In this document: positions 3,345 through 30,555 of the stretch, one piece after another | How the letters are laid out: every line of letters begins with the position of its first letter | How positions within the stretch are numbered: position 1 is the first letter of the stretch | From: a virus | Lineage: Duplodnaviria > Caudoviricetes | Length of the DNA: 64,000 bases | Strand: one strand, 5' to 3' | Virus record (IMG/VR): IMGVR_UViG_3300049892_000014 | Span: 40,913 to 104,912 of that record | Translations under genes and position numbers: made by a program | Notes under the pieces: generated by a model | Database searches by the model: none | What the model saw: the letters and a program-made list of their open reading frames with translations, nothing else | What the model was told of the DNA's origin: nothing

Positions 3345-4243
3345 TACTCCCTCCCTTCCCAGGATTCTTGGTTGACTGGATACACTTTAAGACCATTACT
3401 TCTCCACATAGCTACTACCGAAGGCCTATCGTCTACGATAAAGTCAATAGAATCCTTTCCGTATCTAGCTATAATTTTATCAAGGATCTCTTGCTTTACA
3501 ATGGTATCGGCACGATGATCGCCTCCATTGCGCATAAACATGCGAACCGGAGAGACTCCATTACAAATTAGCATATCCTCGGTAAGAATAGCCTCGTCAG
3601 TTCCTCTCCCGCTAACAATAAATGTTGTTGTAGACCGATTCATCACGTAGAACCAGTCTGCAATAGGTCTGTTAATCTTATCAAGCATAGCTTCGTTCTT
3701 TAATGCCGATGGATGAATCCTCTTTCCATTCGCATCAACACGTCCCAATCTATGACTAATATTCATCAGGGTGCCATCTACATCCCATATAGTAATCTTA
3801 GACCTATTGGGATCAAGGTCTGGTAAAAGATTATATCGCAGCGCCATGTTTTCAATCACAGCCCTACCAACCCTTCCGTTCCCCTGCCGCATCCTATCTT
3901 GATATATACAATCGTTCACAGCTGTCGGCATTTCGATTAACTCAAAGACAGAATCGCACATTTCCGCAATACCACGCCACATATCTTCATTCTTCGGGCT
4001 AAGATTTGTGTCGTCAATCACTACGTTAAATCCAAGGCCCAAAGACAGTTCTGCTATGGATTTTTCCGCACGAATAACAACATCCTCTTTCTTTCCAGAC
4101 CATCGAAAATCTTTCCCGAAGATCATCAACCGAAGATCATCTCTATTGAGTCTAACTGCCGTTTTACCATTTCCCACAATCTCCCTAGACTTCGTACTTT
4201 TACCGCTAGCTGGGAGACCCTTCATCATTATAAGTTTTGGCAT
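3344..4243 (-). CDS. pseT: polynucleotide 5'-kinase/3'-phosphatase (T4 PseT-like)
   Basis: P-loop GLPASGKST, NRDDLR; HAD domain DVDGT, SGR, K, DDR. Confidence 0.92.
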   Translation of the reverse strand: MPKLIMMKGLPASGKSTKSREIVGNGKTAVRLNRDDLRLMIFGKDFRWSGKKEDVVIRAEKSIAELSLGLGFNVVIDDTNLSPKNEDMWRGIAEMCDSVFELIEMPTAVNDCIYQDRMRQGNGRVGRAVIENMALRYNLLPDLDPNRSKITIWDVDGTLMNISHRLGRVDANGKRIHPSALKNEAMLDKINRPIADWFYVMNRSTTTFIVSGRGTDEAILTEDMLICNGVSPVRMFMRNGGDHRADTIVKQEILDKIIARYGKDSIDFIVDDRPSVVAMWRSNGLKVYPVNQESWEGRE

Positions 4244-4526
4244 AGTTCACCTCCATTCTTAACATTAGGCGTAATGCTTCCTTGTCAGCTTGACTAGATT
4301 GTATCCACCACCTACAGGCGTATGACGTGGCATCCATAGATGGGTAATCAGTTCCACATCTTATTCTTTGAACATTATACATGAAAAGATTCATATCATC
4401 CATACCTTGTATACGAATAAGATATATTCTTTTTTCCTTGATACTTACTTTGTGATAGATGCGGATGCTCTGTAGCTTGTATACTCCGTCCATATTAATG
4501 TATTCCATGTTATATGTATACATCAC
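4206..4526 (-). CDS. hypothetical protein with shared C-terminal helix
   Basis: SQADKEALRLMLRME motif; overlaps neighbours. Confidence 0.6.
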   Translation of the reverse strand: MMYTYNMEYINMDGVYKLQSIRIYHKVSIKEKRIYLIRIQGMDDMNLFMYNVQRIRCGTDYPSMDATSYACRWWIQSSQADKEALRLMLRMEVNYAKTYNDEGSPS

Positions 4527-6499
4527 AACTCCTTAAATGACGAGATAGCTTCTTCTGGAAGTTGCTTCTTATATTTCAGAACAATCTTCCTTCCTAAAGC
4601 AGCGGCCTTTGGAGTAAGCCTGCCCTGTTGGGCTAAGTTTACACCTAACCTGGTATCGAATTTATTAAACCCTATACCGTCCACAGCTCTAGCTCCATCA
4701 CAAAGGCCAGCTATCATCTTTAATGCTAGGTGAATATCATCTATCTGCCTAGAGGTTAGCTTTTGAGAATCAAGGGTTAATTGATCTGGAGAGACTGATT
4801 CCGTAGCAACTGGCTCGGCGTAGTTTGCGCTTAATTCCTCTAACTTTAACGCCTGTCCTACGGCCAATCCCTTATCCAATGCCTTATCGGCTACGTTCTG
4901 CTTTGTCACTGTACGTTTTGCCATCATAGAGTCTATGCTACCCTCTAATACATAATGCTGACACAGAACGCTAGACAACTGGCCGTATCTGTGTAGTCTA
5001 TCTTCGCATTGAGTGATCCATGCCGGAACCCAATCTTCTTCAGCGAAGACTGCATGACTACAAACTAGCTGAAGCTTATTTAATCCTATACCAGCGGCTT
5101 TAATAGATCCAAGAAAAACACGACAGTTTGGATCTTCTACAAACTTCACCACCGCATCATTCTTCTCGTCTACATCTTGCTCTCCCGTTAGCCTAACGCA
5201 CATACCAGGAAACTGTTCATAGAGTCCGTTAATCATATCGTGGTGGTGAGCGAAGACTACTATCTTTTTATCTGTCCCCTCAAGCATCTCACGGAGATGA
5301 TTGGCTAAGATTGGGAGTTTAAGAATAGCGGTATCATGCCTAACCTTTGCCATTTCCTTAAATGCAATAGCCTGTGAATCTTTAAGCCTGCTAATAGCAT
5401 TATGATAATCCTGCTGATTATCGGAAAGCTTAGCTAGTTCAGCCGCCGCTCTTAATTGACTAATATTCTCCATGCAGTTTTCATAGAACTGTCTCTCTTT
5501 TAAGATACCTGCTAGAGTTTCGTCTTGAGCGGGGATCTCAATAACCTGTCTTATCTTAGGTGGTAGATCTGTTAAAACCTCAGCTTTTGTTCTCCTAATC
5601 ATCACAGTAGATCGAAGTTTCTGCTGTAGTTCTTTAAGATTACTATGACCGGTAAAATCCCAGCCAAACCTACCCTTCTTGCCAGCGGCATATCTTAAGC
5701 CAAACTTAAAGAAGTTATCGTAATTAGCAGGATCTAACCAATTTAAGATAGGAAACAATTCTATAGTTCTGTTAAGAATCGGAGTACCAGTGAGAGCTAT
5801 CATACGATCAGCCCTTAGTGGATCTAAGATCCAAACATTCCTAGCCTTCTTACCTACTACCTGGGTAGTTCTCTGCGCTTTAGGATTTTTACAGAAATGA
5901 CTTTCATCTACGATAACTAGATCCCAATGCCTTTTGCGTACATCTGTAGCAAACTTTTTAAGTATGTCATAGTTGATGATGACAATGTCATCAGCCGGAA
6001 AGCTCTTAGCGCCAATTCCTACGGATAGTTTTCTGGTTAGCCAGTCGTTTAATTCATTTCTCCAGTTAATCTTAAGAGAGTTTGGGCATATGATAAGAAC
6101 TGATTTAATCTCAGGACAGTAGTTAATCACACCAATAGTCTGAGGAGTCTTACCTAATCCCATATCATCGGCTAATAAAGCATGTTTGTGCTTTAATAGA
6201 AAATCTATACCAGCCAACTGAAATGGCCTAAACTCTTTGCCTTCTGGAGTGGGTACGGATATATTACATCCCCTAGACTTACTAGCCTCTATTGTGGTAT
6301 CGTATTGCGTAGACAATGCCTCCAACTCAGCCCTGCAACTACTATCAGCATATCCATATAACTTAGCGGCAATGTGTACGTCCTTGGTATACCAATGCCT
6401 CTTAAGTACATCCCACTTAAATCCAGCCTTCTTAGGCAGATCTTTTTCCTCATATCTAGTGAGAGCTACAAAGGCATCGCCTTCTTTTTGTAACAGCAT
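4523..6499 (-). CDS. SNF2-family (SMARCAL1/HARP-like) helicase/translocase
   Basis: LADDMGLGKT, DESH, LTGTP, GIGLN, QCEDRLHRYGQ. Confidence 0.92.
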   Translation of the reverse strand: MLLQKEGDAFVALTRYEEKDLPKKAGFKWDVLKRHWYTKDVHIAAKLYGYADSSCRAELEALSTQYDTTIEASKSRGCNISVPTPEGKEFRPFQLAGIDFLLKHKHALLADDMGLGKTPQTIGVINYCPEIKSVLIICPNSLKINWRNELNDWLTRKLSVGIGAKSFPADDIVIINYDILKKFATDVRKRHWDLVIVDESHFCKNPKAQRTTQVVGKKARNVWILDPLRADRMIALTGTPILNRTIELFPILNWLDPANYDNFFKFGLRYAAGKKGRFGWDFTGHSNLKELQQKLRSTVMIRRTKAEVLTDLPPKIRQVIEIPAQDETLAGILKERQFYENCMENISQLRAAAELAKLSDNQQDYHNAISRLKDSQAIAFKEMAKVRHDTAILKLPILANHLREMLEGTDKKIVVFAHHHDMINGLYEQFPGMCVRLTGEQDVDEKNDAVVKFVEDPNCRVFLGSIKAAGIGLNKLQLVCSHAVFAEEDWVPAWITQCEDRLHRYGQLSSVLCQHYVLEGSIDSMMAKRTVTKQNVADKALDKGLAVGQALKLEELSANYAEPVATESVSPDQLTLDSQKLTSRQIDDIHLALKMIAGLCDGARAVDGIGFNKFDTRLGVNLAQQGRLTPKAAALGRKIVLKYKKQLPEEAISSFKEL

Positions 6500-6509
6500 G
6501 AATACTCCT

Positions 6510-7085
6510 TTAGAAGTCTAAATTCTTGTCTAGAAATTCCCTAGCTTCTTTGCCAAGTATCTCCTGCGACAGATAAGAGGTTGTTGATGCTATAGACTTA
6601 TGCCCAAGAAACGAAGAAGCTACCTGGATAGAAGTCGCTGAAGCTAATAGCATCGCCACAGACCTACGAAGTGTATGCGTTGAAGCGGCAGAACTATCCG
6701 TACCTTGTGGCATTAGTTTACTTAGTATGTACTTAAATAATTCATGACAATAGGTTCGTCCAATGGGCTTAGATGGATCTAGACCTGGAAAGAGATACTT
6801 ACTTGTACCAACAACCGTAGGTAGGTATTTAATAATCCTCTCCCTAGTTGTATCGTTAATAGACCTCTCTACATACGATCCAGTCTTTTTCATCTTCCTT
6901 CTAATCGACGTGTAGACATTCCCATTCCGATCTACAACGTCCTCTATGAGCAGAGATTTCGCATCGCTAACCCTAAGACCGGTATTGCCCATAATCCTTA
7001 GCAGGACTTCGTCTCTTATAGACCTAGATCCAGCTATATCATACATCTTCTTAATCTGTGCTGCATCTAAAAATATCTTAGACAT
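6510..7085 (-). CDS. tyrosine recombinase, catalytic domain only
   Basis: TGLRVSD, HTLRRS, LGH, TTSY; 191 aa with no N-terminal binding domain. Confidence 0.88.
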   Translation of the reverse strand: MSKIFLDAAQIKKMYDIAGSRSIRDEVLLRIMGNTGLRVSDAKSLLIEDVVDRNGNVYTSIRRKMKKTGSYVERSINDTTRERIIKYLPTVVGTSKYLFPGLDPSKPIGRTYCHELFKYILSKLMPQGTDSSAASTHTLRRSVAMLLASATSIQVASSFLGHKSIASTTSYLSQEILGKEAREFLDKNLDF

Positions 7086-7488
7086 ATCTTGGCCCTCTCA
7101 ATCTTGCTAATAAAGATAATCTGTCTAATTCATCACTAGAACAATTGTATACATATTTAGTTATTTCTATCCTCTGCTCTACAGTTGGGTGATACCCTTC
7201 GTTAAACAAGACATGTCCAGCTTCCTGCATAATTATACATGGCAGAAATGGAGTTCTAGCCTGATACGGATGGTTAATGCTTTTACCCCTAGTGACAAAC
7301 TGGAAAACCATATCACGATCCTTGTCTACTACGGCTCTGTAATATATATAACTCTTCTTTCCATTGTCTGTCAGAGTCATCCTGCGAATACAAGAGTTTC
7401 CCTTAAATTCTGGATGATTATTTTCTGGGTTGACAATAATATCATTTATGGAATATAGCTCAGCCCTTGCTTTACGTTTTTTAACCAT
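7078..7488 (-). CDS. hypothetical protein with shared C-terminal helix
   Basis: ends SSDELDRLSLLARLRG. Confidence 0.65.
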   Translation of the reverse strand: MVKKRKARAELYSINDIIVNPENNHPEFKGNSCIRRMTLTDNGKKSYIYYRAVVDKDRDMVFQFVTRGKSINHPYQARTPFLPCIIMQEAGHVLFNEGYHPTVEQRIEITKYVYNCSSDELDRLSLLARLRGPRYV

Positions 7489-7751
7489 GTTATTTCACTC
7501 CAAAAGTTGACAGTAATCCACGACTAATCTTTTTTCTCCTAACTTTTTTCCCATCCATGGATACAGCTACACTTCTTGCTATTGCCATTCTGTAGACAGA
7601 TTCTATAGAGATAACAATCTCATCTTTGCCACGTTGCTTAAATGCAATATATCCATCAGGTAGGATAGTCATAATGCCATAGTCCGATTTCCTGGGTTCT
7701 ATGCGATTATCCATACTTAGATTAACTCTACGCTTAATCTCTTTTCCATCT

Positions 7752-8120
7752 TTAAGATTGATCACGTTTACCCTCCAAGGTATACATCATCCATGCTAGT
7801 TCCGCTTCTCTACTACACATATTAGCCTCTAAGGCACCTGTATAGCATAGAAAATCAACACACTTATACCATTCAGGATGAGTACGACCTTCAGGATACT
7901 TAAACACAGTCTTCCAAACATAGAAATAAAAATCCATAGGCCATGTTTTACTAATCACCTTCCATCCTCCATTTTCACCTGGCCTATAGAAAACAATATC
8001 ATCAACTTTAGTCTTCCAGTCTTGCGTTCTAATGTACCATCGCTTTTCGCCATTAAGCTCGCAAAGCGTAGGGGGAGTTTCGATAAATTTACCACGCAAT
8101 AGTTTTTTAGCAGCAGCCAT
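7752..8120 (-). CDS. hypothetical protein with shared C-terminal helix
   Basis: ends SREAELAWMMYTLEG. Confidence 0.65.
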   Translation of the reverse strand: MAAAKKLLRGKFIETPPTLCELNGEKRWYIRTQDWKTKVDDIVFYRPGENGGWKVISKTWPMDFYFYVWKTVFKYPEGRTHPEWYKCVDFLCYTGALEANMCSREAELAWMMYTLEGKRDQS

Positions 8121-9683: not shown

Positions 9684-9687
9684 GAAC

Positions 9688-9716: not shown

Positions 9717-9734
9717 GATCTTTCCGATGCTAGA

Positions 9735-10037
9735 TTATTTCATACCTTCAAGGAGACATTCTAACTTTAGCATATCAAAATCATCCGGTGGAAGTTCCTC
9801 AAAATAAGTAGATAGCTTAGTCTGCCCGATGATATTAGGATGTTGGGACAGCCCTAATTTTTTACATATCCTACTCCATACACAGGGAGATAAAGTAAGA
9901 GTAGTTCCACGTAAAACATTACGCTCCATCATCTCTACGTTTTTAACAGGTCTACTTCTTTGCATATAGTCTACGTTGATCCAGAACATATACTTGCATC
10001 TCCTGGCACGTATCACTCTCTCGTATCTTGTACTCAT
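9735..10037 (-). CDS. hypothetical protein with shared C-terminal helix
   Basis: ends PPDDFDMLKLECLLEG. Confidence 0.65.
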   Translation of the reverse strand: MSTRYERVIRARRCKYMFWINVDYMQRSRPVKNVEMMERNVLRGTTLTLSPCVWSRICKKLGLSQHPNIIGQTKLSTYFEELPPDDFDMLKLECLLEGMK

Positions 10038-10038
10038 G

Positions 10039-10329
10039 TTAATCTCCTTGTAGAATTTCTTGTAGGTGAAACGCTTCCCATTCAGCCTTAGTGAAATTGA
10101 CCAATATCTTTAACCATTTCTTTCTTCTTCGGCTATCATATTGAGTGTTGATCTCAAATGTTTGATAAGATATTGGGTATCCTAGTTGTTTTTTAGCACC
10201 CTTAGACCTAACTATCCATTCGGTTTTCCAGTCGGGCCAATCACCATCTTTCGGATAAGACCAGCTAGATTCATCTACCTGCTTTACAAACTCATAGAAG
10301 TTATGGTTTCTACGATTCTTCCTTTTCAA
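10039..10329 (-). CDS. hypothetical protein with shared C-terminal helix
   Basis: ends TKAEWEAFHLQEILQG. Confidence 0.65.
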   Translation of the reverse strand: MKRKNRRNHNFYEFVKQVDESSWSYPKDGDWPDWKTEWIVRSKGAKKQLGYPISYQTFEINTQYDSRRRKKWLKILVNFTKAEWEAFHLQEILQGD

Positions 10330-10774
10330 GGGAATCCTTTCTCATGACGTATGTTGTAAACTGTTTATTAGTAATCAGAATAGGTAGCGGTAGAGCAATC
10401 AAACCCTGCCAAGTTCCAGAGGAAGTATAGCCATTAAGATTAGCTTTGTCATTCCTAACTGTAATATAGGCAGTTCCCTGCTCGTCAAGACGTTGATTGA
10501 TAAACTGAAGAATCTCCTCACGCTTCGCCGGTTCAGATAATGTATTTAATACATAGGTACATAAAATCGTCTGATAATTCCACGCTAGCCATGTTCTATT
10601 CTTATGGTATTGGTCATAACCTTCTATATCTAATAGCTTCGCATCTGTACCATAACCACATCCATAGTCAAGAGCTGGTTTAAGAATAAGTCCCCTATCA
10701 TTCAACATCCTTGCTGGTACGCTTAGCTTCCTTCTTTTAATCGCTGTCTTGTGTGTATTATCTGGTGACTCCAT
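10310..10774 (-). CDS. class I SAM-dependent methyltransferase-like protein
   Basis: LDYGCGYG motif I, GYD, YVLN. Confidence 0.75.
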   Translation of the reverse strand: MESPDNTHKTAIKRRKLSVPARMLNDRGLILKPALDYGCGYGTDAKLLDIEGYDQYHKNRTWLAWNYQTILCTYVLNTLSEPAKREEILQFINQRLDEQGTAYITVRNDKANLNGYTSSGTWQGLIALPLPILITNKQFTTYVMRKDSLEKEES

Positions 10775-10994
10775 GATTCCTCCAATCTAAAATACCAAAC
10801 ATATGGATAGCTTCCCATTGTTCGGGTGTTAATGTAGATAGAAACTCGTGGGTTCCGTCAATATCATTCTCATCACGGATGGCCCAATAATGAGCAGATA
10901 GTATTGGTTGTCCTATCTTTTTTCCAGAGACAGATAATTGGATGAAGTATTTATCATCCATACTTACATATTCTGCACTAATCTTAGCTCCCAT
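10758..10994 (-). CDS. hypothetical protein with shared C-terminal helix
   Basis: TPEQWEAIHMFGILD. Confidence 0.6.
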   Translation of the reverse strand: MGAKISAEYVSMDDKYFIQLSVSGKKIGQPILSAHYWAIRDENDIDGTHEFLSTLTPEQWEAIHMFGILDWRNHGVTR

Positions 10995-11250
10995 TACCAG
11001 ATCCCCTTCCCTCTATAACTTCTGTTAGATAGAATAACTCCCATTCTTCTTTAGTGAATTTCATCAGTCTTTCAGCAAACTTAGTCTCGCCTTCTGACTT
11101 TGTATAATGTCTATACGTAGACCCAGAAATAGACCTACCTATTGGTACTTGTACGTTTATCCAAGCTGAACTAGCATCTCTATATAGGTCAATGGTATCT
11201 AGTTCATTCTGCCTATATCTGAAGATAAGTCTAGTGTGATTTGTTTCCAT
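10984..11250 (-). CDS. hypothetical protein with shared C-terminal helix
   Basis: TKEEWELFYLTEVIEG. Confidence 0.65.
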   Translation of the reverse strand: METNHTRLIFRYRQNELDTIDLYRDASSAWINVQVPIGRSISGSTYRHYTKSEGETKFAERLMKFTKEEWELFYLTEVIEGRGSGNGS

Positions 11251-11285: not shown

Positions 11286-11837
11286 ATGGGAAAAGATAAT
11301 TGGTTAGTTAAAAAAGAGGGGCCAGAACCTTTACTGGCAAAGAAAACTAAAGCATATCCAGAATGGGAAAGGGCTAATGTATCCTATTCGCATTGGCTCA
11401 GCGGTAGAACTGCTGAAGAAATTGAGAAGTTTACAGGAGTAGCTCTAGTCGAAGTGGAAAAGGATATAGCGCATATAGAAAGTGTCCTACCTTCTAAGAC
11501 TCTCATTGCAAACAACAACACTAGACAGCGCATCTTACTACAGCGTACACAAGCTAAAGCATACGCTGATAAGTTACAAGATGCACTCACTACTGATGTA
11601 GCAGCATATCTAAAAGCGGGATTAAACCCGACAACCCCTCTAAAAGAATATAGAGAGGCTGTCGGGATGACCGAAAAGCCTGGCGCATTAAACATTCAAG
11701 TCAATCAGCAAACTAACGTAACTACAGGCGTTAGCAGGACTGAAGATATTATTCGCTCCGTAATGAATAAGATGCACCAGAAGGAAGATGAGCCACCTAT
11801 TATAGACGTTGAGGCAGAAGAAGCTGAAGCTGTTTAA
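11286..11837 (+). CDS. putative terminase small subunit
   Basis: HTH-like N-terminus, helical middle, NIQVNQQTNV and IIDVEAEE tail typical of TerS; shares promoter motif with the TerL and portal operons. Confidence 0.45.
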   Translation: MGKDNWLVKKEGPEPLLAKKTKAYPEWERANVSYSHWLSGRTAEEIEKFTGVALVEVEKDIAHIESVLPSKTLIANNNTRQRILLQRTQAKAYADKLQDALTTDVAAYLKAGLNPTTPLKEYREAVGMTEKPGALNIQVNQQTNVTTGVSRTEDIIRSVMNKMHQKEDEPPIIDVEAEEAEAV

Positions 11838-13048
11838 TCTTCTTCTACTTGAATACAACGCTTAACCCAATCAGGCGGCTGACAGTTATAGCTGCCTACT
11901 TTAACTACAATGACTGGAAACTTGGGAATAAATTTACCCCAATCAGCATCGCAATCTGATACAATGACAAGAAAATCAGGTCTAGGCTTTAGTTGAGCCG
12001 CAGCCTCTATCCCTGGCCCCATATTTGTACCACCGCCACCAACTAAGGAAATCTGCTTCCTAGACTTAACCTTCTGAACATGACCAACGCTAGAATCATT
12101 ACTGATTACAGTAACGTCTACCGCCAGTCCCTTCAGGATGCCGTCAACCTCACCAATAGCATGGGCCAAGTCTTTATTAGACATACTTCCACTGGTATCA
12201 ATCTGTACGGCAACATTAGGCTTAGGCGCACGGAGACTTGGCATGATAATCTTGCCATATATAGACTGTCTTCTGGCTGGTCTGCTATAAGTATAGTTGA
12301 CCATACCTTGAGTTTCCCCGATCATGCCACGAATACATCCATTGAGAATTGTTCTCCATGGAACTGTACTCCTTAGCATGTCGTCAGCCCATCTCTCAAA
12401 GCCTCCAGGTATAGAACCCCTGCCCTTAGACCTTGCGTAATCCTGTATATCCTTTGCCACAGTATTCTTAATTACCTCTACTTCTTTACCTGTGACTCCC
12501 TGTACGCTACCAGTACCATCACCTTCTGGTACACTTTCATCATCGCCCTCTCCAGTAGCACATCCACCACAAGCTCCACCGCCTACTGTAGGATTAGGGA
12601 TTTGCTGTTTAATCTCCTCAGCCTTATCCATTAACAGCTTGAAGTATTCCTCAGCCATTAAACCTTCGTCAAAGCCAAAGGTTTCTTTGGGATAAATAAC
12701 TCCTTTGGGTAGCTTAATATCTTTAATATCATCGTTAATCTCACAGTCAGCCGCAAGATTCCAGATCATATGTTCCGCCTGGGATGATACGCAGGATCTT
12801 ATAGGATGATCTCTAAGTAAGTGCATGACCTCATGTACCATAACAGATGCTATCTCGTTAATACTCCATTGGTCAAATATACCAGAGTTATAAATCATCC
12901 TCCATCTCTTATCCACTCCCATCGTAACTTGTCCCGCAGTCCTACTGAGATCATCCGTCTCAATAGGAATAAGCGCAAACAATCCTGATGAAAAGTAGGG
13001 AAAGAGATACGCTGCCCTAAGTCTTGCGGCGCATATTCTTTCGTCCAT
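11834..13048 (-). CDS. metallopeptidase-VWA domain protein (DUF2201-like)
   Basis: HEVMH zincin motif, WNLAADCEIN, DTSGSM MIDAS, GGGT. Confidence 0.88.
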   Translation of the reverse strand: MDERICAARLRAAYLFPYFSSGLFALIPIETDDLSRTAGQVTMGVDKRWRMIYNSGIFDQWSINEIASVMVHEVMHLLRDHPIRSCVSSQAEHMIWNLAADCEINDDIKDIKLPKGVIYPKETFGFDEGLMAEEYFKLLMDKAEEIKQQIPNPTVGGGACGGCATGEGDDESVPEGDGTGSVQGVTGKEVEVIKNTVAKDIQDYARSKGRGSIPGGFERWADDMLRSTVPWRTILNGCIRGMIGETQGMVNYTYSRPARRQSIYGKIIMPSLRAPKPNVAVQIDTSGSMSNKDLAHAIGEVDGILKGLAVDVTVISNDSSVGHVQKVKSRKQISLVGGGGTNMGPGIEAAAQLKPRPDFLVIVSDCDADWGKFIPKFPVIVVKVGSYNCQPPDWVKRCIQVEED

Positions 13049-13319
13049 TGGGTTTCCCTCCTTCGTGATGTTTAATCAGCTCATAAGCCATAGTTTTATA
13101 TGTTTCAGTAATACTTCGGAGAGTAGTTTTCATTCCCTCTAGTTGACTGATGACTGTTAGAGCATCCTGTTCTGGAAGAATAAATTTAGGCCTAAACCTA
13201 TAGCATCCATACCCCTTGACTCTAGCAAATCCGTCATCATCTAGCTTAACCAACTCATCCCATAAAAGATATGGGAATAAGTCATATGACCAAAAAACAT
13301 ATTGTTTCTCTTTCATCAT
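13017..13319 (-). CDS. hypothetical protein
   Basis: ORF with GAGG RBS, packed in the operon. Confidence 0.6.
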   Translation of the reverse strand: MMKEKQYVFWSYDLFPYLLWDELVKLDDDGFARVKGYGCYRFRPKFILPEQDALTVISQLEGMKTTLRSITETYKTMAYELIKHHEGGKPNGRKNMRRKT

Positions 13320-13484
13320 AAATCCTCAATGTTAATTCCGTAATGCTGGAGTACAACAGCTTCCAGCTTCTCGACTTCGGTAACCCATTCAGCAGGTGGC
13401 TCAACTCCACTTTCATCTATAGCATCCAGTAGATCATTAGCGGCCTCCAATATATCCTTGGTTGAGTCAAGTATTTCATCAGTC

Positions 13485-13781
13485 TTAGACATATTTACCC
13501 CCCAACTTAATCATTAGTAAAATTTTCTCTAACTCATCTTCTGACTTGTTCATCAAAAACTTAATAGTATTCGACTGAGCGTGGTGTTCTCCTCCGTGTA
13601 ATAGCACAACAAGCTTACTTAATACAACATCATTCCACTCTCTGGGCATCCACTTCTTAATAGGATTACCATAATCGCCAGGGAATGTTTTGTATAGGAT
13701 AAATATGCCATTCACGTCGTAAAACCAACCCCACCCGTTAGTCGTATCAATCCATGTTCGACCTATTACACCCACTTCCAT
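13485..13781 (-). CDS. hypothetical protein with shared C-terminal helix
   Basis: ends SEDELEKILLMIKLGG; GGAGG RBS before ATG 13781. Confidence 0.6.
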   Translation of the reverse strand: MEVGVIGRTWIDTTNGWGWFYDVNGIFILYKTFPGDYGNPIKKWMPREWNDVVLSKLVVLLHGGEHHAQSNTIKFLMNKSEDELEKILLMIKLGGKYV

Positions 13782-13802
13782 ATATACCTCCAATTAGTAT
13801 TC

Positions 13803-13857: not shown

Positions 13858-14952
13858 CTACCAGAGTCCAGCTTGCGTCAATACATCCTTAAACCGCATA
13901 GCTTCTGGCGGCGGGAGCGATGTAGACTTAGGCCGATTCTTAACAAGCAATCTAGCACAAGAAGCCGCTATGTCTGCCACGTTCAATTCGGCAGCTTTAG
14001 CCAACACTCTCCAACCATTCAGCCATCGCTCATTGGTGTTGTTACTGATAACGACAGCTGTTACTGAGGTCAGTAAGGCGTAAGCCCTATCTCCACGTTT
14101 AGGAAGAACAAGCTTTTCGGGATGAGCCAATACAACTTCAGGATCAGGCAACTCATCACCCTCTTGAAACTTCTTAAACTCTAGAGCTGGGCCGTCCCCA
14201 ACACATCCAGCTATAAGTTCAAAGACTACATCGTCAGAGTCTTTGAAACCAAACGCTCTAGCAGCAGCCAATAGCCTTGCAGCCATATCCCATGTTCTAT
14301 TACTTGGCCACGCTTTACCACGACTATCCTCATCCTTAGGAATAGCATTACGCAGATTAGGACGAGTGCGAACAAATGAAACTATCGCAGTTCGAGCTAA
14401 TTGGATATTAGCAGGTTTATCCCAATCTTTAGGAAGTTCCTGCTTTTTAGACTGCGGCCATCCAGAGATCATACCCTCAGACCATGAATCCAGAGTATCC
14501 GCAAAATCAAAGTGAACAAACCTATTAGCCAACGGAGGAGATAGCTCCCATCCATTAGCCGCTTGCTCAGGTGGATTAGCAGCAGCTACGATAGTGACAT
14601 GCTTAGGTAGCTGAAGATCACCAACAGCCTTATCTAAAACCACTCTAAGCAATGCACTCTGTACAGCCGGTGGAGCCGTAGAGATTTCATCTAAGAATAA
14701 GACTCCAGGAATATCGGTATTCAATCGGTGCGCCCAAGACGGCGGAGCATAATGTACAACTCCATCCGCACCCTGAATAGGTAGGCCGCTAAAGTCCGAA
14801 GGTTCACGGATAGCGGCAATAACTACCTCACAGTTCCAATCCATACTCTTTGCTACGTCAACAAACCAAGAAGACTTACCAACTCCAGGAGGGCCAGTTA
14901 GTAGCACTGGAACGCCCGCCAACATTGCAATAGTCATAGCTTTACCACTCAT
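13858..14952 (-). CDS. MoxR-like AAA+ ATPase
   Basis: GPPGVGKS, LFLDE, VQSALL, AAANP, LANRF; partner VWA gene downstream. Confidence 0.9.
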   Translation of the reverse strand: MSGKAMTIAMLAGVPVLLTGPPGVGKSSWFVDVAKSMDWNCEVVIAAIREPSDFSGLPIQGADGVVHYAPPSWAHRLNTDIPGVLFLDEISTAPPAVQSALLRVVLDKAVGDLQLPKHVTIVAAANPPEQAANGWELSPPLANRFVHFDFADTLDSWSEGMISGWPQSKKQELPKDWDKPANIQLARTAIVSFVRTRPNLRNAIPKDEDSRGKAWPSNRTWDMAARLLAAARAFGFKDSDDVVFELIAGCVGDGPALEFKKFQEGDELPDPEVVLAHPEKLVLPKRGDRAYALLTSVTAVVISNNTNERWLNGWRVLAKAAELNVADIAASCARLLVKNRPKSTSLPPPEAMRFKDVLTQAGLW

Positions 14953-15232
14953 ATGTTTTCTCCTTAAGTTATTGTTTTTTCTTCGGGTTGCAAATAGGAC
15001 AATCATCTTCCTGGTCTGAGATCCGATCAGGAACTAATGGCCATTGATTTAACTCGCTGACCTGGTTTAAGTCTCCAGTCCATTTTGATGATGTGCTATG
15101 GATAGTTACAGATGGTATCTTATACTGCTCTACCATAGACTTCACATCATTAAGTTTATGGATATGACGGCTAATAATCTGTCCGTCTGGCAGTGTGAAA
15201 TCAACTTCAAAACCTTTCGTCTTACTCATCGT

Positions 15233-19459: not shown

Positions 19460-20071
19460 CTAAAACTCAAACTTATCTTTCCCACCTATAACATTCATCA
19501 TCTTATCCATTTCAAAGCGATACATTTCTTCGTCTGATAATCCATAATTGATAGACCATTTAGTAGCTTCGTTGAGATCTGAGACAGTTTTGAATAAAGT
19601 CTCTAGCTCTTGATAAGTCCAATGTTTCCAATATGACGTAGTAGGCTTATCATCTGAAAATAATTTATTAAACCTATCTCTAATTGACGCCTGGTATTTT
19701 ATGGATAGTAACTCCTTATAACAATTCACATCTAAGGCAGCTATACTACCATAATAATTTACCTGAGATATATTATATTTATTACTCAACAGTATGCGAT
19801 AGATGCTGTCAACTCTATTCATAAGGCAATGGCCATCCCGATAAATTCCTAAATCTTTTCCCTTAACCATATAGCCATCATGGTCAAACATTACAACTAA
19901 ATTAGCCGGTCTATCCATATAAGCCATAACAACATTTCCCATAAACAAGAAATCCCGTATAATTGTGACTTCCCGTTTACCTTTGTACTTAAAAGATGCG
20001 TATTTCTGTCCACGCATCCAGGCCATGGTTACTCCTGCAATATCTGAATAAATAGCTTTTTGCTTAGGCAT
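19460..20071 (-). CDS. hypothetical protein with shared C-terminal helix
   Basis: ends RFEMDKMMNVIGG; AGGAG RBS. Confidence 0.65.
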   Translation of the reverse strand: MPKQKAIYSDIAGVTMAWMRGQKYASFKYKGKREVTIIRDFLFMGNVVMAYMDRPANLVVMFDHDGYMVKGKDLGIYRDGHCLMNRVDSIYRILLSNKYNISQVNYYGSIAALDVNCYKELLSIKYQASIRDRFNKLFSDDKPTTSYWKHWTYQELETLFKTVSDLNEATKWSINYGLSDEEMYRFEMDKMMNVIGGKDKFEF

Positions 20072-25050: not shown

Positions 25051-25307
25051 AACTGACTCTAACTATACCCTATACCCTATCCCAATCTATCCTAGTCTAT
25101 AGGCTATCCAGTTTAGGATAGTTTCAAGACTAGGCTAGACTAGGCTAGAGTATATGGCATTTTGCGTTAAAATCGGTTTTAAGCCGTTTTCCCAATGCAA
25201 GGCATAGTAGCATATGCCATGACCGGAGAAAATGCCTTAAAAGCGACTACAGCGCATTTAATGGCCTATTTGCTATCGTATCGGATAGGCTGAAAATCGT
25301 TTTGAGC

Positions 25308-25348
25308 AAAAAAAAAGGCGAGCAAGCTATGGTAGCTTGCCCGCCTTT
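25308..25348 (-). terminator. intrinsic terminator
   Basis: GGCGGGCAAGCUA-CCA-UAGCUUGCUCGCC plus U9. Confidence 0.85.
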
Positions 25349-25365
25349 ATCGTTTCCGGTTTTGC

Positions 25366-25638
25366 TTAGGAAGTAGCTATCTCCGTTTCCGTTTTCCCCT
25401 TAGACAGTTTGTCAGAGTTTACGGAGATAAACTTGCGAATATCGTCGGCAGCGTCCAGAACCCGATTCCAGCCTGTCTCGTATAGCGTGACAGGGAAACG
25501 TCCAAGTCCATATACGCTGACCGCTCCTTTGGTCGATACCTTGAAGGAAAGTTTGCCAGAATTTTTGGCTTTCAAGGCATTGTTTTCGGCTTCAAGTTTT
25601 GCAAGTTTTGCTTCCATTTCGGCTAATGTCATTCCCAT
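25366..25638 (-). CDS. first leftward early protein (coiled coil + small beta domain, possibly nucleic-acid binding)
   Basis: KVSTKGAVSVYGLGRFPVTLY..GW; GGAG RBS; followed by terminator. Confidence 0.7.
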   Translation of the reverse strand: MGMTLAEMEAKLAKLEAENNALKAKNSGKLSFKVSTKGAVSVYGLGRFPVTLYETGWNRVLDAADDIRKFISVNSDKLSKGKTETEIATS

Positions 25639-26072
25639 GGTATTGTTTCTCCAGAGTATGAATCCGCCTAATAGCTTGGAACCATTCCGCCCTGTTAGGC
25701 GGAAACGATTGCAGGTTTTTTGCGCCCTGCACCATTGCGGCAACAAATCGGGCATTTTTTTCACGGCTTGTCAAGGCAAGGTATATATATGATAGATTAC
25801 TGACTATAGGATAATCTGCAAATGATTATAGGCTTGATCTTGAATGATAAGGGAATAGCTATATCCTGCGAACAATTCCACAAAATGTTCGGATAGTCAT
25901 AGGCTAACCCTAATAGAGACAATGATTTACGGCTAGGGTAGGGGTAGGGGTCGAGACCTGCCTACCCTACCCCCTTATATGCTACGACCCCTCCTTTAAT
26001 ACGCACAAAAAATTCCCTTCATATCCGAAAACTAGGTAGATAAAAGAGTTACAGTCTTTTTCACTATATCTC

Positions 26073-26101
26073 TTGACAGACTAATTTGATTATGCTAGTA
26101 T
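26073..26101 (+). promoter_or_regulatory. sigma70-type promoter
   Basis: TTGACA-17-TAGTAT with TG extension. Confidence 0.75.
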
Positions 26102-26119
26102 GTTTTTTGTGGAGGCGCT

Positions 26120-26404
26120 ATGAAGAAGCTGATATGCTGTTTATTGTTACTTATGACGGTCGGATGTACCACTATTACGAATGGTAGAGTGATTGATAAG
26201 AGATTCTTCGCAGCTCATTATCAGGTAACGTATATGCCGAACGGTAAGACGCTGATGCCAATATTAATGCACCACGACGATGAGTGGGATCTTAAGCTTG
26301 TGAAAGGTGACGATAGCGGGTGGGTAGAGGTTTCTGAAAAGGAGTACAATTCGATAAGGGTTGGAGATAATTTTAGTCTACACGTAGACAAGGAGAATAA
26401 ATGA
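26120..26404 (+). CDS. putative lipoprotein
   Basis: MKK + hydrophobic stretch + lipobox-like TVGC. Confidence 0.65.
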   Translation: MKKLICCLLLLMTVGCTTITNGRVIDKRFFAAHYQVTYMPNGKTLMPILMHHDDEWDLKLVKGDDSGWVEVSEKEYNSIRVGDNFSLHVDKENK

Positions 26405-26940
26405 GAACGAATTCAGAGTACGCTGATATGCAGATTAGACTGAAACAGGCCGTGGCTGATTTTTATACGGCCATGATCAAATGGGAACTTGATGGATTTT
26501 TACCAGGCAGAAAGTTTGATGAGGCGGATAAGGCCTCTGACGAGGTGTATAATCTATTAGATGAACAACGAAAAGAACAGGCTATGAGGGAGGCTGAAAT
26601 GGCGTGTAACGGTGAAGAAAAGAATAAGATTAACACGAATTACGTGAAGGTTCAGGACGAGAGTGCGATTAACATTCCAACTATAACAACTTCCTCTGAG
26701 GCTTATTACCCACCTACTTGTTGTGATGGATGCGGGTGTGAGTTGGATGAGCCGAGCGTGGCGATTGAAATTTATTTCAATAATGGATCGTGCCTGGCCT
26801 TTAATGATTGTGAGATTGATATTAATAACGATGGTCTTCTGGTTTTTGATTATGTCTCCGTGTTGGACGGTAAGACGAAGACGGCCACGTTTCAGAAATA
26901 CCAACTCGCCGGTTACACGATGACGGTCGACAACGAATAA
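26401..26940 (+). CDS. hypothetical protein
   Basis: AAGGAG RBS; ATGA-type overlap. Confidence 0.65.
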   Translation: MRTNSEYADMQIRLKQAVADFYTAMIKWELDGFLPGRKFDEADKASDEVYNLLDEQRKEQAMREAEMACNGEEKNKINTNYVKVQDESAINIPTITTSSEAYYPPTCCDGCGCELDEPSVAIEIYFNNGSCLAFNDCEIDINNDGLLVFDYVSVLDGKTKTATFQKYQLAGYTMTVDNE

Positions 26941-26959
26941 AAAACGTATATATAATGAT

Positions 26960-27160
26960 ATCCGGACAGAAATCCGGACAAAATGTCCGGATTGGAATTC
27001 CGTGGGCAGCGTGGAGAACACGAACTGCAAGTGACTATGCGGCAAGGAAAGCTGTGGGTGATACTAGGTAATTCTCGCAGTAAGCCGAGAGCTATTTCGG
27101 CGCAGGATGTCTGGCAGGAGGTTGATCGGCCTAGAGTGGAAAGACACTCCCCACGGAATA
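26960..27160 (+). ncRNA. candidate structured GGA-rich small RNA
   Basis: TCGACA-18-TATAAT upstream; ATTCCGTGGG/CCCACGGAAT closing stem; internal hairpins. Confidence 0.45.
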
Positions 27161-27180
27161 AAAAAATTTTGAGTTTCTTC

Positions 27181-27209
27181 TTGACATTCTAAAAAGAACA
27201 TAGTACAGT
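27181..27209 (+). promoter_or_regulatory. sigma70-type promoter
   Basis: TTGACA-17-TACAGT. Confidence 0.65.
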
Positions 27210-27227
27210 GGTTGAATTGGAGGGGGC

Positions 27228-28007
27228 GTGAAACTGATGGATAAGACAGGTAAAGAAGTTGTATTCCCCACGCTGGAAGAAGGGTGCGCAGGGAAACATT
27301 TTGAGTTTATGGGATTTGATTGCTGGTGGACGGGGTGGAAACAAACCGCTAGCCAGATAGTTTATGGTGGGCAGTGGGTTGCCTATGACCAGAAAACCGG
27401 ACTTGGATACGCTTATTCTTTACCTGGGCGGAAATTTATGCCTATTATATCCCTCACTCACGCACTGGATATGACGGTGAATAGCCTCGTAGAAGACCAA
27501 TTTAGAGTTGTAACTGACAAGAAATATAGAACTCAGATGGTACGGCAGGGTAAGAGGTCGTTTAAAAGGCAGATATCGGAGCATGAGCGCAGGAGAATGA
27601 TGGATGCTTTGGATGAAAGGAAGCAGAAAGAGGTTATAACTGACTGGTCTAAGATGTACCAGCAGTGGGTTAATCAGGCTGGAAAGAATGTCGTACCTCA
27701 ATCATGGACGACCTCTGGAACATTTATAGGACAACAGTCCATAGGAGCCGCATCCACTAATGTACCACCAGGTGGAATTATTAGTACGACAATAGCTCCT
27801 AGCAATGTTATGTACAAAGGAAGTAGCTACGACTATAATGCATGGCAGGATGCAATAGTGCAGGGTTGTAAGGAACAAGCAAAACAGAAGGTTCAAAAGG
27901 AAATGGATGATAAGCTAGCCTCTATGAAAGAAGAGGCTATGAAAGACTATTATAATAGCTCTATCTTGGATAATATTAAATCAGTCTTAAAAGGAAAGAA
28001 GGAGTAA
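27228..28007 (+). CDS. hypothetical protein
   Basis: 259 aa, GGAGG RBS, coupled to the AAA gene. Confidence 0.7.
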   Translation: MKLMDKTGKEVVFPTLEEGCAGKHFEFMGFDCWWTGWKQTASQIVYGGQWVAYDQKTGLGYAYSLPGRKFMPIISLTHALDMTVNSLVEDQFRVVTDKKYRTQMVRQGKRSFKRQISEHERRRMMDALDERKQKEVITDWSKMYQQWVNQAGKNVVPQSWTTSGTFIGQQSIGAASTNVPPGGIISTTIAPSNVMYKGSSYDYNAWQDAIVQGCKEQAKQKVQKEMDDKLASMKEEAMKDYYNSSILDNIKSVLKGKKE

Positions 28008-29311
28008 TGGACGATCTGAAGTTATACACGCCCACGTTTAAAGAGATAGGTTACAAGTTCATGTTGCAGCATGAGTCGTGGATAACAGCGCAGATGGGTT
28101 GCAGTACTGATAGTTTAGTTCGAGTCAGACCGCCCGATTGGCTTTCTGATTTCATCACAGTAGCTCTGAAGACGTTGTATTTTAAGGACAAGGTAGGAAT
28201 CGTAACAAACAATATGAATCCTATAGCGTTAGCCGTAGGTGCCGATATAGAAGGAATCGAAACAACGAATGGCTTGGAAGGAAACCTGGTGGAATTCTAC
28301 AACGCCCAAAAGGCTGGAGATTGGTATGTTAACTCTTCTGAATATCTCCTGTCAGTCAAAATTCGTAGCCTTAGTTTCCCTTTTGTCGTGTATTGCCAGC
28401 CTGTCGCAATGCACGGACACACTGCCGAGAGGACTGAATTGATACTTCCTCAGAGTGGTTTGGATGAGTTCGTCACCTATTTCCAGAATGAAGAGAGGCG
28501 TAGTGGTAGAATAACAGTTAATGTCTTTGGGCAAAAGACATATACCATTAAGCCTATGGAATGGGAAAACATGATCATTGATGAGTCGGTAAACTTTCTG
28601 ATTAAGAAAGATTTGCAGACCTTCATGCAGAAGCGTGATTGGTTCTCAGGCAAGGGCATACCATATAGGAGAGGATACCTGTTGCATGGACCTCCTGGCA
28701 ACGGTAAAACCTCTGCGATCAGGGCAATGCTTACACAGGCTAAGCTCCCTGCTTTCACTATTAAGAAGATGTACGACCCTGATGCTATGTATTATTTCGA
28801 GGATATGTTTGAAGCTGCCAGTAAGTCTGGCGGCGCTTTTATCATATTAGAAGATATTGATCGTGCGTTCTCAGACAAATCGGATGGGAAGGAAGCCAAC
28901 TCTAACCTTGTTCCTTTCTCCGTCTTTCTTAATTGTCTAGATGGTATTTCTGATGCTGACGGGATTATTGTCGTTGCCACAGCAAATAATCCCCAAGTAT
29001 TAGACAAGGCCATCCTTGAAAGACCAGGGAGATTTGATAGAGTGGTTCACTTCCCTAATCCGACACTAGACCTCCGAAAGAGATACATGGCTAGTCATTT
29101 ACCAGAGATGGATGATGAGAGCTTGACCAGGATAGCCGGTGAGTGTAATAATATGAGCTTCGCCCAGCTTCGTGAGATCTACATTATAGCGTCTCAGCTG
29201 GCGGATGATAGAAGCATGGAGGTCACGGAAACGGATGTGATAGATGCACATCAACGTCTTGTTTCAGCGCTTCAGAAAGCTAAGGCTAAAGATGCGGGGT
29301 ACAAAGCCTAG
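28007..29311 (+). CDS. classic-clade AAA ATPase (BCS1/FtsH-like AAA module, no protease domain)
   Basis: RRGYLLHGPPGNGKT, ILEDID, TANN..LD.AI.ERPGRFD. Confidence 0.9.
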   Translation: MDDLKLYTPTFKEIGYKFMLQHESWITAQMGCSTDSLVRVRPPDWLSDFITVALKTLYFKDKVGIVTNNMNPIALAVGADIEGIETTNGLEGNLVEFYNAQKAGDWYVNSSEYLLSVKIRSLSFPFVVYCQPVAMHGHTAERTELILPQSGLDEFVTYFQNEERRSGRITVNVFGQKTYTIKPMEWENMIIDESVNFLIKKDLQTFMQKRDWFSGKGIPYRRGYLLHGPPGNGKTSAIRAMLTQAKLPAFTIKKMYDPDAMYYFEDMFEAASKSGGAFIILEDIDRAFSDKSDGKEANSNLVPFSVFLNCLDGISDADGIIVVATANNPQVLDKAILERPGRFDRVVHFPNPTLDLRKRYMASHLPEMDDESLTRIAGECNNMSFAQLREIYIIASQLADDRSMEVTETDVIDAHQRLVSALQKAKAKDAGYKA

Positions 29312-29588
29312 GATACCGTCTTGCGGAACGGTATCTTACGCCAAGATACCGTGCGAACATATGATCCTAAATGGTGTCAATTGTAGTGAGGGGTATATCT
29401 CTGTAACTATAACTGAAAACAATCAGACCAGGTACTTCGATATGCCTAAGAACTTTACTACTGAAGATCTTAGTTATGTAATGAATGAGTTCGGATCTCC
29501 TTCTGAGGCTGTTGATATGCTAGAGAATGCGACTCCGGAAGAATTGGAGAGGATTCAACTACTAGCGAGGATGCATGATATCAGGTAG
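29292..29588 (+). CDS. hypothetical protein with shared C-terminal helix
   Basis: ends TPEELERIQLLARMHD; start uncertain. Confidence 0.6.
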   Translation: MRGTKPRIPSCGTVSYAKIPCEHMILNGVNCSEGYISVTITENNQTRYFDMPKNFTTEDLSYVMNEFGSPSEAVDMLENATPEELERIQLLARMHDIR

Positions 29589-29892
29589 GCCTTCTGTATT
29601 AAATTGGAATGAAGGAGGCGGTGAGAAGCGCATAGTCGTAGGAGCAAATGAGAACCTGACTGCCGTTATCACAAACGTAGAAGCAGGCGCACTGCTGACC
29701 ATAGTAGAGGGAAAGAGGATTATAGAACTTAAAAGAAAGATCGGAAATGAGGCAATCACTTCTGAGTTTATCTATTATCTATATGGACAGTTTGATTATA
29801 CTCATACCGATTTTGTTAAATGGCTACACACGGTCACGATTGATGAACTAGAGCGCCATAGAATGTTATACGCTTTATCAGAAAGGAAATAA
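29575..29892 (+). CDS. hypothetical protein with shared C-terminal helix
   Basis: ends TIDELERHRMLYALSE. Confidence 0.65.
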   Translation: MISGRPSVLNWNEGGGEKRIVVGANENLTAVITNVEAGALLTIVEGKRIIELKRKIGNEAITSEFIYYLYGQFDYTHTDFVKWLHTVTIDELERHRMLYALSERK

Positions 29893-29967
29893 TGCGGGGT
29901 AGAGTACTGGTAACTCAGTAGCCTCATAAGCTACCTTATGTCGGTTCAAATCCGGCCCCCGCAACCA
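29893..29967 (+). tRNA. tRNA-Met(CAT), initiator-like body
   Basis: cloverleaf; loop CTCATAA; GTCGGTTCAAATCCGGCCCCCGCAACCA. Confidence 0.92.
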
Positions 29968-29972
29968 AACTT

Positions 29973-30200
29973 ATGGGTGTATATGATATTGAGATGGGAG
30001 TTGGCCCTCTAATGGAGTATATAATATTAGGAGCGCTTGACGGGTCAAAGAGACTAGAGGCTCAGGAGATAATGTCATACGTTCTATATAGCATGTTTCA
30101 TGGCGACCACATTCAGGCTGAAGACTGGTTTAAAACACATAACAGGGCTGACTATGAGAATGTCAGGCTCATGAGATCGTTGAGTAGACATGCCAATTAA
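29973..30200 (+). CDS. hypothetical protein with shared C-terminal helix
   Basis: ends NRADYENVRLMRSLSR. Confidence 0.6.
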   Translation: MGVYDIEMGVGPLMEYIILGALDGSKRLEAQEIMSYVLYSMFHGDHIQAEDWFKTHNRADYENVRLMRSLSRHAN

Positions 30201-30555
30201 ATTACCGACAGTTGGATGGCACGACGTAAACACCAAGGAAATAATCCTTCGTGATAAGGGTGCGGTTACCTACCTGCCGTATGCTGTCTTTAAAAATGTG
30301 AAAGAGGTATGGCCTGATAGCGCAACTTACGCAATAGTAAATCGGTACGGGGAAACGCAGGGCCAACTATGGTTTACCCCTATAGATCTTGGCGATAATG
30401 TAAAGCTTAGCATGGAAACTTTTTGCCAGATGGTCCAGGATCAACAAGGTGGAACCGAATACAGCAGAGACGATTTAATCGGTTATCTGAAAGCCCTCCT
30501 GGAAGCAGATGTGGAGCTTTATAAATTAATGGTGAAAATGGGAAAATGGGATTGA
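30190..30555 (+). CDS. hypothetical protein with shared C-terminal helix
   Basis: ends LEADVELYKLMVKMGK. Confidence 0.65.
   Translation: MPIKLPTVGWHDVNTKEIILRDKGAVTYLPYAVFKNVKEVWPDSATYAIVNRYGETQGQLWFTPIDLGDNVKLSMETFCQMVQDQQGGTEYSRDDLIGYLKALLEADVELYKLMVKMGKWD

What the first reader, a model, noticed from the sequence alone, without database searches (positions are those of the whole stretch)
4206..30555. About 13 unrelated small proteins share one C-terminal helix, clustered beside AAA+ ATPases: possible modular adaptor system
Seen, aligned by eye: SSDELDRLSLLARLRG (7078), TPEELERIQLLARMHD (29292), TIDELERHRMLYALSE (29575), NRADYENVRLMRSLSR (29973), LEADVELYKLMVKMGK (30190), SEDELEKILLMIKLGG (13485), PPDDFDMLKLECLLEG (9735), TKAEWEAFHLQEILQG (10039), TPEQWEAIHMFGILDW (10758), TKEEWELFYLTEVIEG (10984), SQADKEALRLMLRMEV (4206), CSREAELAWMMYTLEG (7752), EMYRFEMDKMMNVIGG (19460). 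Consensus is roughly [ST]x[ADE][DE]h[ED]xhx[LM]xxx[LMI]xG near the C-terminus, while the N-termini share nothing. Four genes directly follow the AAA ATPase at 28007, and one sits between the MoxR AAA and VWA genes. Inference: variable target-recognition domains carry a common docking helix for a shared hub, such as a phage AAA unfoldase, a host protease or a virion scaffold.
Basis: partly seen in the sequence, partly recalled or inferred. Interest (0 to 1): 0.85.

Follow-up and report, generated by a model that had tools for sequence, protein, structure and literature searches.

The report
Multi-copy phage protein family, shared end-domain
Twelve small early genes of this uncultured 105-kb freshwater phage belong to one undescribed protein family that shares a C-terminal three-helix domain of about 50 residues, and some members always sit directly behind a Cdc48/FtsH-type ATPase gene in related phages, so they may be its interchangeable cofactors, though no binding has been shown.

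Summary
The motif is real and far beyond chance for 12 of the 13 listed proteins; 19460-20071 is not supported.

- **What is shared.** It is more than a 16-residue helix. It is a C-terminal domain of about 45-50 aa with three predicted helices: a1 aromatic, a2 ending [WYF]L, and a3 [ST]xEE[LWF]ExhxLMxxL. The proteins are therefore homologues with variable N-terminal parts.
- **The trailing 'xG'.** In 8 of 12 genes these codons are the Shine-Dalgarno site of the overlapping next gene.
- **Novelty.** The family has no Pfam, PHROG or PDB match. A profile search of 1.84 billion proteins found it only in this phage clade.
- **Relatives.** I reached relatives through the AAA gene. Loci that appear to represent three further phages carry 8-10 detected members each, and a 2.3-kb contig from a fifth lineage carries two.
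- **Gene order.** In all five lineages members lie directly downstream of the AAA+ gene, often overlapping it. Four more distant AAA homologues (36-41% identity) have none nearby.
- **MoxR/VWA.** This link is not conserved; the two genes are adjacent in the closest relative.
- **Most likely reading.** This is an old, expanded early-gene family whose constant domain is a common interaction module.
- **Earlier notes.** The scan recorded similar 'shared C-terminal helix' patterns, with other motifs, in other large phages. None is a sequence look-alike of this family.

The parts
4206..4526 (-). family member (106 aa); domain about 4248-4409
   Evidence: ortholog L007 14289-14627
7078..7488 (-). 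family member (136 aa); domain about 7093-7254; SD and start of 6510-7085 lie in its last codons
7752..8120 (-). family member (122 aa); domain about 7770-7931
   Evidence: ortholog L007 12732-13115
9735..10037 (-). family member (100 aa), weakest of the 12; domain about 9744-9905
   Evidence: 10.5 bits with the relatives-only profile
10039..10329 (-). family member (96 aa, TTG start); domain about 10045-10206
   Evidence: (E 1.8e-6 to 10984)
10758..10994 (-). family member (78 aa); domain about 10782-10943
   Evidence: ortholog L007 10218-10466
10984..11250 (-). family member (88 aa); domain about 11008-11169
   Evidence: ortholog L004 20189-20428
13485..13793 (-). family member (98-102 aa) between the MoxR and VWA genes; domain about 13497-13658
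   Evidence: this position is not conserved in the relative
29292..29588 (+). family member, first gene after the AAA gene (start uncertain: 29244, 29292 or 29361); domain about 29418-29579
29575..29892 (+). family member (105 aa); domain about 29722-29883; model has 4 strands then 3 helices
29973..30200 (+). family member (75 aa); domain about 30027-30188
   Evidence: pairs with L010 13023-13328
30190..30555 (+). family member (121 aa); domain about 30385-30546; this ortholog group is kept in all four phages with long loci
28007..29311 (+). classical-clade AAA+ ATPase (about 200-aa N-domain plus one AAA module); candidate partner
27228..28007 (+). 259-aa protein upstream of the AAA gene with an internal helix like a3 (aa 114-131); membership not supported
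19460..20071 (-).
13858..15006 (-). MoxR-type AAA+ ATPase
11834..13048 (-). DUF2201 metallopeptidase-like plus VWA-like protein

Best explanation
The twelve proteins are paralogues of one previously undescribed family confined to a small clade of uncultured freshwater phages.

**Architecture.** Each member has a variable N-terminal part of 0-110 aa and a constant C-terminal domain of about 45-50 aa, followed by a short tail. The domain has three predicted helices: a1 is aromatic-rich; after a loop, a2 ends in [WYF]L; a3 reads [ST]xEE[LWF]ExhxLMxxL.

**Shown.**
- The family diversified before the sampled phages split, and several ortholog groups are kept.
- It is held at 8-12 detected copies per phage, in tandem arrays in the early gene regions.
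- Members directly follow, and often overlap, a Cdc48/FtsH/PAN-class AAA+ ATPase gene.

**Inferred.**
- The constant domain is a common protein-protein interaction module. It couples variable N-terminal parts to one shared partner during early infection.
- The best candidate partner is the co-operonic AAA+ ATPase, with the family acting as its cofactors, adaptors or clients.

**Separate constraint.** The Gly-rich end of the motif mostly reflects the Shine-Dalgarno sequence of the translationally coupled next gene.
For: - Homology beyond the helix: pairwise hits run 36-63 aa. Alignments A1 and A4 show a1, a2 and a3. One 52-aa member consists of the domain alone.
- The low-confidence AF2 models place three helices at the C-terminus in two different members.
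- The window-only matrix finds 10 C-terminal hits each in L009 and L010. The relatives-only profile recovers the 12 window members.
- Column statistics over 40 members: column 6 is 97% Asp/Glu, and columns 10 and 14 are 100% hydrophobic.
- Clade restriction: 30 hits at E<1e-3 among 1.84e9 proteins. These are known members, three new small orthologs, and three repeat-protein false positives.
- N-terminal parts align only between orthologs, not between paralogues.
- The tree shows ortholog pairs across phages and no clustering by phage.
- Synteny with the AAA gene holds in five lineages, with abutting or overlapping ORFs.
- The ATPase belongs to the classical unfoldase clade and has its own N-domain.
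- The SD overlap can be read directly in the DNA.
Against: - No binding evidence of any kind exists.
- Conserved gene order among related phages is expected from common descent alone.
- Eight of the 12 window members lie 14-24 kb from the AAA gene, on the other early arm.
- AAA homologues of 36-41% identity have no family member within 10 kb, so the ATPase does not need the family.
- The structural models are poor (pLDDT about 50; 62-72 in the C-terminal helices of 10039).
- The most conserved residues could simply be the folding core of a mini-domain.
Confidence: 0.55

Rival explanations
1. Reader's model in its strict form. A short portable docking helix has been grafted onto unrelated target-recognition domains, and it docks them to a hub: the AAA at 28007, MoxR/VWA, a host protease or a virion scaffold.
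For: - The C-terminal element is conserved on N-terminal parts that cannot be aligned.
- Linkage to the AAA gene is conserved.
- The ATPase is of the classical unfoldase class.
Against: - The shared unit is a domain of about 50 aa inherited by duplication, not a grafted 16-mer.
- The MoxR and VWA genes are adjacent, with no member between them, in the closest relative.
- The genes lie in early regions, not in the structural module, which argues against a virion scaffold.
- No N-terminal part matches any known recognition domain.
Confidence: 0.2
2. There is no common hub. The three-helix unit is only the stable folding or dimerisation core of a fast-evolving mini-protein family. Each paralogue acts on its own host target through its variable part.
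For: - The strongest conservation is hydrophobic (columns -4, -3, 5, 8, 10, 11, 14), as expected for a core.
- The paralogues are old and individually retained across phages.
- Members are dispersed over both early arms.
Against: - Acidic positions 3, 4 and 6 of a3 are conserved at 72-97%. A capping box explains only columns 1 and 4.
- Members abut the AAA gene persistently, in five lineages.
Confidence: 0.3
3. The domain is a truncated or degenerate helix-turn-helix, like sigma region 4, GerE or RHH, that binds nucleic acid or RNA polymerase.
For: - In the unrelated phage L011 the top matrix hits are the first helices of GerE and Sigma70_r4 proteins.
- A repeat protein with Sigma70_r4-like units appeared in the profile search.
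Against: - None of the 40 members gives a Pfam HTH hit even at E<=5.
- The proteins end 1-15 aa after the helix, so no recognition helix follows.
- The domain is on average acidic.
Confidence: 0.05
4. Chance or artefact: generic capped amphipathic helices picked by eye, or a DNA-level repeat or ribosome-binding-site footprint.
For: - [ST]xxE is a common helix capping box.
- The trailing Gly or Glu codons are SD sequences in 8 of 12 genes.
Against: - The statistics exclude chance.
- Codons differ between copies.
- PDB-wide and 1.84e9-protein controls find no generic matches.
Confidence: 0.02

Closest known systems
p97/Cdc48 cofactors that share small N-domain-binding modules (UBX, VIM, SHP); e.g. 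UBXD1 (PMC10716044), p47 (PMC9098461)
   Same: Many otherwise different proteins carry one small constant module. The candidate hub is a classical-clade AAA+ ATPase with a separate N-domain.
   Different: There is no sequence similarity and no binding shown. The hub here has a single AAA ring and is phage-encoded. The resemblance is 'works like' only.
Poxvirus ankyrin/PRANC (F-box-like) multigene families (own knowledge)
   Same: A viral multi-copy family with a C-terminal helical constant module of about 40-50 aa, a variable N-terminal part, and tandem arrays.
   Different: The N-terminal parts here are not ankyrin repeats. No Pfam PRANC or F-box hit was found. Bacteria have no SCF ligase.
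SPO1 Gp53, a phage early protein acting as an adaptor-like modulator of host ClpC (PMC6873191, abstract only)
   Same: A small early phage protein that redirects an AAA+ machine.
   Different: Gp53 is a single protein acting on a host ATPase. It is not a multi-copy family and shows no similarity.
C-terminal address peptides: ClpX-binding tail of SspB (PMC9963277), encapsulin cargo-loading peptides, clamp-binding C-termini of T4 gp43/gp55/gp33 (own knowledge)
   Same: A shared C-terminal element on different proteins is read by one partner.
   Different: Those are short, unstructured peptides at the very end of the protein. Here the element is a folded domain of about 50 aa followed by tails of 1-58 aa.

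Membership tests
Expanded paralogous gene family (lineage-restricted) | Significant sequence similarity among members of one genome, found independently of by-eye choice | tested here: met
Expanded paralogous gene family (lineage-restricted) | Tandem arrays, with orthologs in related genomes | tested here: met
AAA+ cofactor/adaptor set (p97-UBX/VIM-like, ClpX-SspB-like) | The shared module physically binds the ATPase (N-domain) | not testable with these tools
AAA+ cofactor/adaptor set (p97-UBX/VIM-like, ClpX-SspB-like) | Conserved genomic linkage with the ATPase | tested here: inconclusive
   Linked in five lineages. However, AAA homologues of 36-41% identity lack the family, and shared ancestry also explains the gene order.
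Sigma70 region 4 / GerE-LuxR HTH | Pfam PF04545, PF08281 or PF00196 match, with an HTH following the 'LTxRE' helix | tested here: not met
   No hit in any of 40 members at E<=5. The proteins end 1-15 aa after the helix.
PYRIN/death-fold | Six-helix bundle of about 90 aa with a significant profile match | tested here: not met
   The best PDB hits (POP1, ASC) have E 0.24-0.95 over 21 residues. The domain has three helices.
Poxvirus PRANC / F-box-like | Pfam match and N-terminal ankyrin repeats | tested here: not met
Terminal degron or cargo tag (ssrA-like, encapsulin CLP) | Short unstructured peptide at a fixed distance from the C-terminus | tested here: not met
   The conserved unit is about 50 aa and helical. 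Tails are 1-58 aa.

The most novel reading that the evidence does not exclude
A phage-encoded Cdc48/FtsH-class AAA+ remodeller works with about a dozen interchangeable cofactors. All dock through one three-helix domain, and their fast-evolving N-terminal parts select different host proteins for unfolding or disassembly early in infection. This would be a viral, bacterial-world counterpart of the p97-cofactor network.
Probability: 0.2. Interest if true: 0.8.

Novelty: new variant of a known kind. Interest (0 to 1): 0.55.

Why it matters
About 7% of this phage's genes (12 of roughly 160) belong to a family that no database describes. The family is kept in many copies across a clade, which points to an important early-infection function. 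If the constant domain is a handle for the adjacent AAA+ ATPase, it would show how a phage can aim one remodelling motor at many host targets. It would also supply a compact (about 50 aa) natural docking module. Even if no hub exists, the family is a clear case of an ancient, diversified mini-protein family in phage 'dark matter'. It also shows how ribosome-binding sites of overlapping genes shape the C-terminal residues of proteins.

Tried and rejected
- Complex prediction (AAA alignment A5 with domain alignment A4) was not available.
- Megablast of 26000-34000 against phage records found no match.
- A viral-contig scan with the AAA protein found none.
- 13485 has no homologue other than itself in 5.8e9 proteins.
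- Pfam and PHROG scans of members gave nothing consistent.
- PDB profile searches gave only insignificant helix matches.
- ESM Atlas gave no feature hits. The structural neighbours of its low-confidence model of 29292 are generic alpha/beta folds.
- Fold search of the 10039 model reached at most Z 3.4, which is uninformative.
- A DNA-level repeat is rejected because codons differ.
- 16406 and 27228 looked like extra members by eye and by matrix, but the profile does not support them. 27228's helix is kept in its ortholog.
- Splitting AAA identity into N-domain and AAA module shows no break between family-bearing and family-lacking phages.
- The domain tree is mostly unresolved.
- Sequencing runs: the DNA occurs in freshwater and sediment metagenomes. 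One metatranscriptome contig covers only 28251-28739 inside the AAA gene, which says nothing about expression of the family.
- P0129's contig could not be read.
Full report
**Setting.** The window is bases 40913-104912 of a single 104,912-bp contig. This is a tailed phage with terminase, portal and major head genes and nine tRNA genes. Early genes lie on two divergent arms: the minus strand from about 1.5 to 25.9 kb, and the plus strand from 26.1 kb. It has no close relative among deposited phages. Its DNA occurs in freshwater and sediment metagenomes.

- All 13 peptides are present.
- In leave-one-out scoring with a 16-column matrix, seven instances beat every one of 29,282 background positions. 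Two more are equalled once, three have p of about 2-3e-4, and 19460 has p = 2e-3, which is chance level given the number of positions.
- To remove the by-eye selection, I seeded a matrix from four proteins only and left out the last two columns. In the remaining ORFs, 9 of the 18 positions at or above 0 bits lie within 15 aa of a C-terminus, a zone holding 8.5% of all positions (P = 5e-6). Shuffled proteins give a mean of 0.5 and a maximum of 4.
- A matrix from the three Trp-containing proteins ranks 29292 and 13485 first, in register.
19460, 16406 and 27228 are not returned.
- The profile's best scores in 177,635 PDB sequences are 14-15 bits, so generic amphipathic helices do not explain the signal.
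- Codons for the conserved residues differ between copies, so conservation is at the protein level and there is no DNA repeat.

**Two corrections to the observation.**

First, the last two consensus columns ('xG') are confounded by a ribosome-binding site. In 8 of the 12 genes (4206, 7078, 7752, 10039, 10758, 10984, 13485, 29292) those codons spell GGAG, GAGG, AAGGAG or GGGGG. They lie 5-10 nt before the start codon of the next, overlapping gene. A looser scan suggests the same in most of the 40 members from all phages.

Second, the similarity does not stop at the helix.
- Pairwise hits extend 36-63 aa.
- Anchored and MAFFT alignments show a conserved [WYF][LF] pair 3-4 residues before the S/T, and a further aromatic helix upstream.
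- AF2 models of 29575 and 10039 are poor overall (pLDDT about 50; 62-72 in the C-terminal part of 10039). Both still end in three helices. In 29575 these follow four strands.
- One relative's member is only 52 aa long and is essentially the domain alone.
- Over 40 members, column 6 is 97% Asp/Glu, column 4 is 90% acidic, columns 10 and 14 are 100% hydrophobic, and column 11 is Met in 21 of 40.

**Relatives.** The small proteins themselves have no word-based homologues. The AAA protein at 28007 does. Through it I fetched the following:
- Loci L001, L004 and L007, which overlap in gene content and appear to come from one related phage (AAA 64% identity).
- L009 (AAA 42%).
- L010 (AAA 46%).
- L015, a 2.3-kb contig (AAA 45%).

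The window-only matrix finds 10 C-terminal hits each in L009 and L010 (7-30 bits), and none near a C-terminus in L011. The closest relative has 8 members, several of them clear orthologs of window genes. L015 has two members directly after the AAA gene, with 4-nt overlaps. One of them was absent from the profile's training set and scores 14 bits.

A 40-sequence profile (A4) was searched against 1.84 billion representative proteins. It gives only 30 hits at E<1e-3: known members, three new small orthologs, and three long repeat proteins (Sel1/TPR, ankyrin, sigma-r4-like repeats) whose scores are sums of many weak repeats. Pfam, PHROGs, NCBIfam and the PDB have nothing. The family is therefore new and restricted to this clade.

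**Family structure.**
- With the domain removed, the N-terminal parts (0-110 aa) align only between orthologs: the 30190 group in four phages, the 29575 group in three, and the 7752 pair. One recent pair in L010 also aligns. Paralogues otherwise do not.
- The domain tree is poorly resolved. It supports several cross-phage ortholog pairs and one L010-specific cluster, and the phage labels do not cluster.
- The paralogues are therefore old and have been retained individually.
- The domain is on average slightly acidic, and the N-terminal parts range from -5 to +9 in net charge.

**Links to the ATPases.**
- The 28007 protein has an N-domain of about 200 aa and one classical-clade AAA module. Its nearest solved relatives are Afg2, VAT, p97/Cdc48, BCS1 and YjoB. 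The nearest NCBIfam models are PAN and FtsH.
- In all five lineages, family members lie immediately downstream of the AAA gene, often overlapping it. In L009 one member also abuts its start codon, with six members upstream and four downstream.
- Four loci with AAA homologues of 36-41% identity (L011-L014) have no member within 10 kb. N-domain identity falls smoothly, with no break between family-bearing and family-lacking phages.
- Eight window members lie on the other early arm.
- MoxR and the DUF2201/VWA gene are adjacent in the closest relative, with no gene between them. The position of 13485 is therefore an insertion in this phage and carries no functional weight.

**Interpretation.**

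*Shown:* this is a homologous, clade-restricted, multi-copy family of small early-region proteins. It has a constant C-terminal three-helix domain, conserved operon linkage to a classical AAA+ ATPase, and SD-driven terminal residues.

*Inferred:* the constant domain is a shared interaction module, and the AAA+ ATPase is the best candidate partner. I put the shared-module reading (any partner) at about 0.4-0.55 and the AAA link at about 0.2-0.25.

*Main rival (0.3):* the domain is only the folding or dimerisation core of a diversifying mini-protein family with no common hub.

*Rejected or unlikely:* a degenerate HTH is unlikely, and chance is excluded.

**Comparison with earlier notes.** The scan's earlier notes report 'shared C-terminal helix' patterns, with different motifs, in other large phages. 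A look-up by sequence found no look-alike of this family. One of those notes also reports the overlap with the next gene's ribosome-binding site, which I had found independently.

Noticed in passing
window 50748-54022: Six tandem ORFs of 173-184 aa lie directly after the major head gene. They have similar C-terminal ends and are probably a paralogous structural or decoration array.
   Followed up: no
window 13017-13793: Three small genes, including member 13485, lie between the MoxR and DUF2201/VWA genes. In the closest relative (L004 17255-19632) those two genes are adjacent.
   Followed up: partly
window 26120-26404: The first gene of the plus-strand early operon starts with a lipoprotein-like signal (MKKLICCLLLLMTVGC). 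It may be a superinfection-exclusion type lipoprotein.
   Followed up: no
window 6510-7085: A 191-aa protein consists only of a tyrosine-recombinase catalytic domain (Pfam Phage_integrase). It is conserved in the relative (L007 13705-14280).
   Followed up: no
window 29893-29967: A tRNA-Met gene splits the four-gene family array downstream of the AAA gene. Eight more tRNA genes follow up to 35393.
   Followed up: no
L011 and L013 (loci of AAA homologues, 36-38% identity): In other, larger phages the AAA homologue sits beside rIIB, Ku, sigma-factor and R2K genes. No member of the family is present there.
   Followed up: partly
window 28251-28739: A 508-nt contig from a sediment metatranscriptome library is identical to this part of the AAA gene. 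This does not prove transcription.
   Followed up: no
whole genome 36079-36372 (upstream of the window): A 97-aa ORF gives a weak (9-bit) match to helix a3 near its N-terminus (TPEEYEKLKKAVMV). This is probably chance.
   Followed up: no
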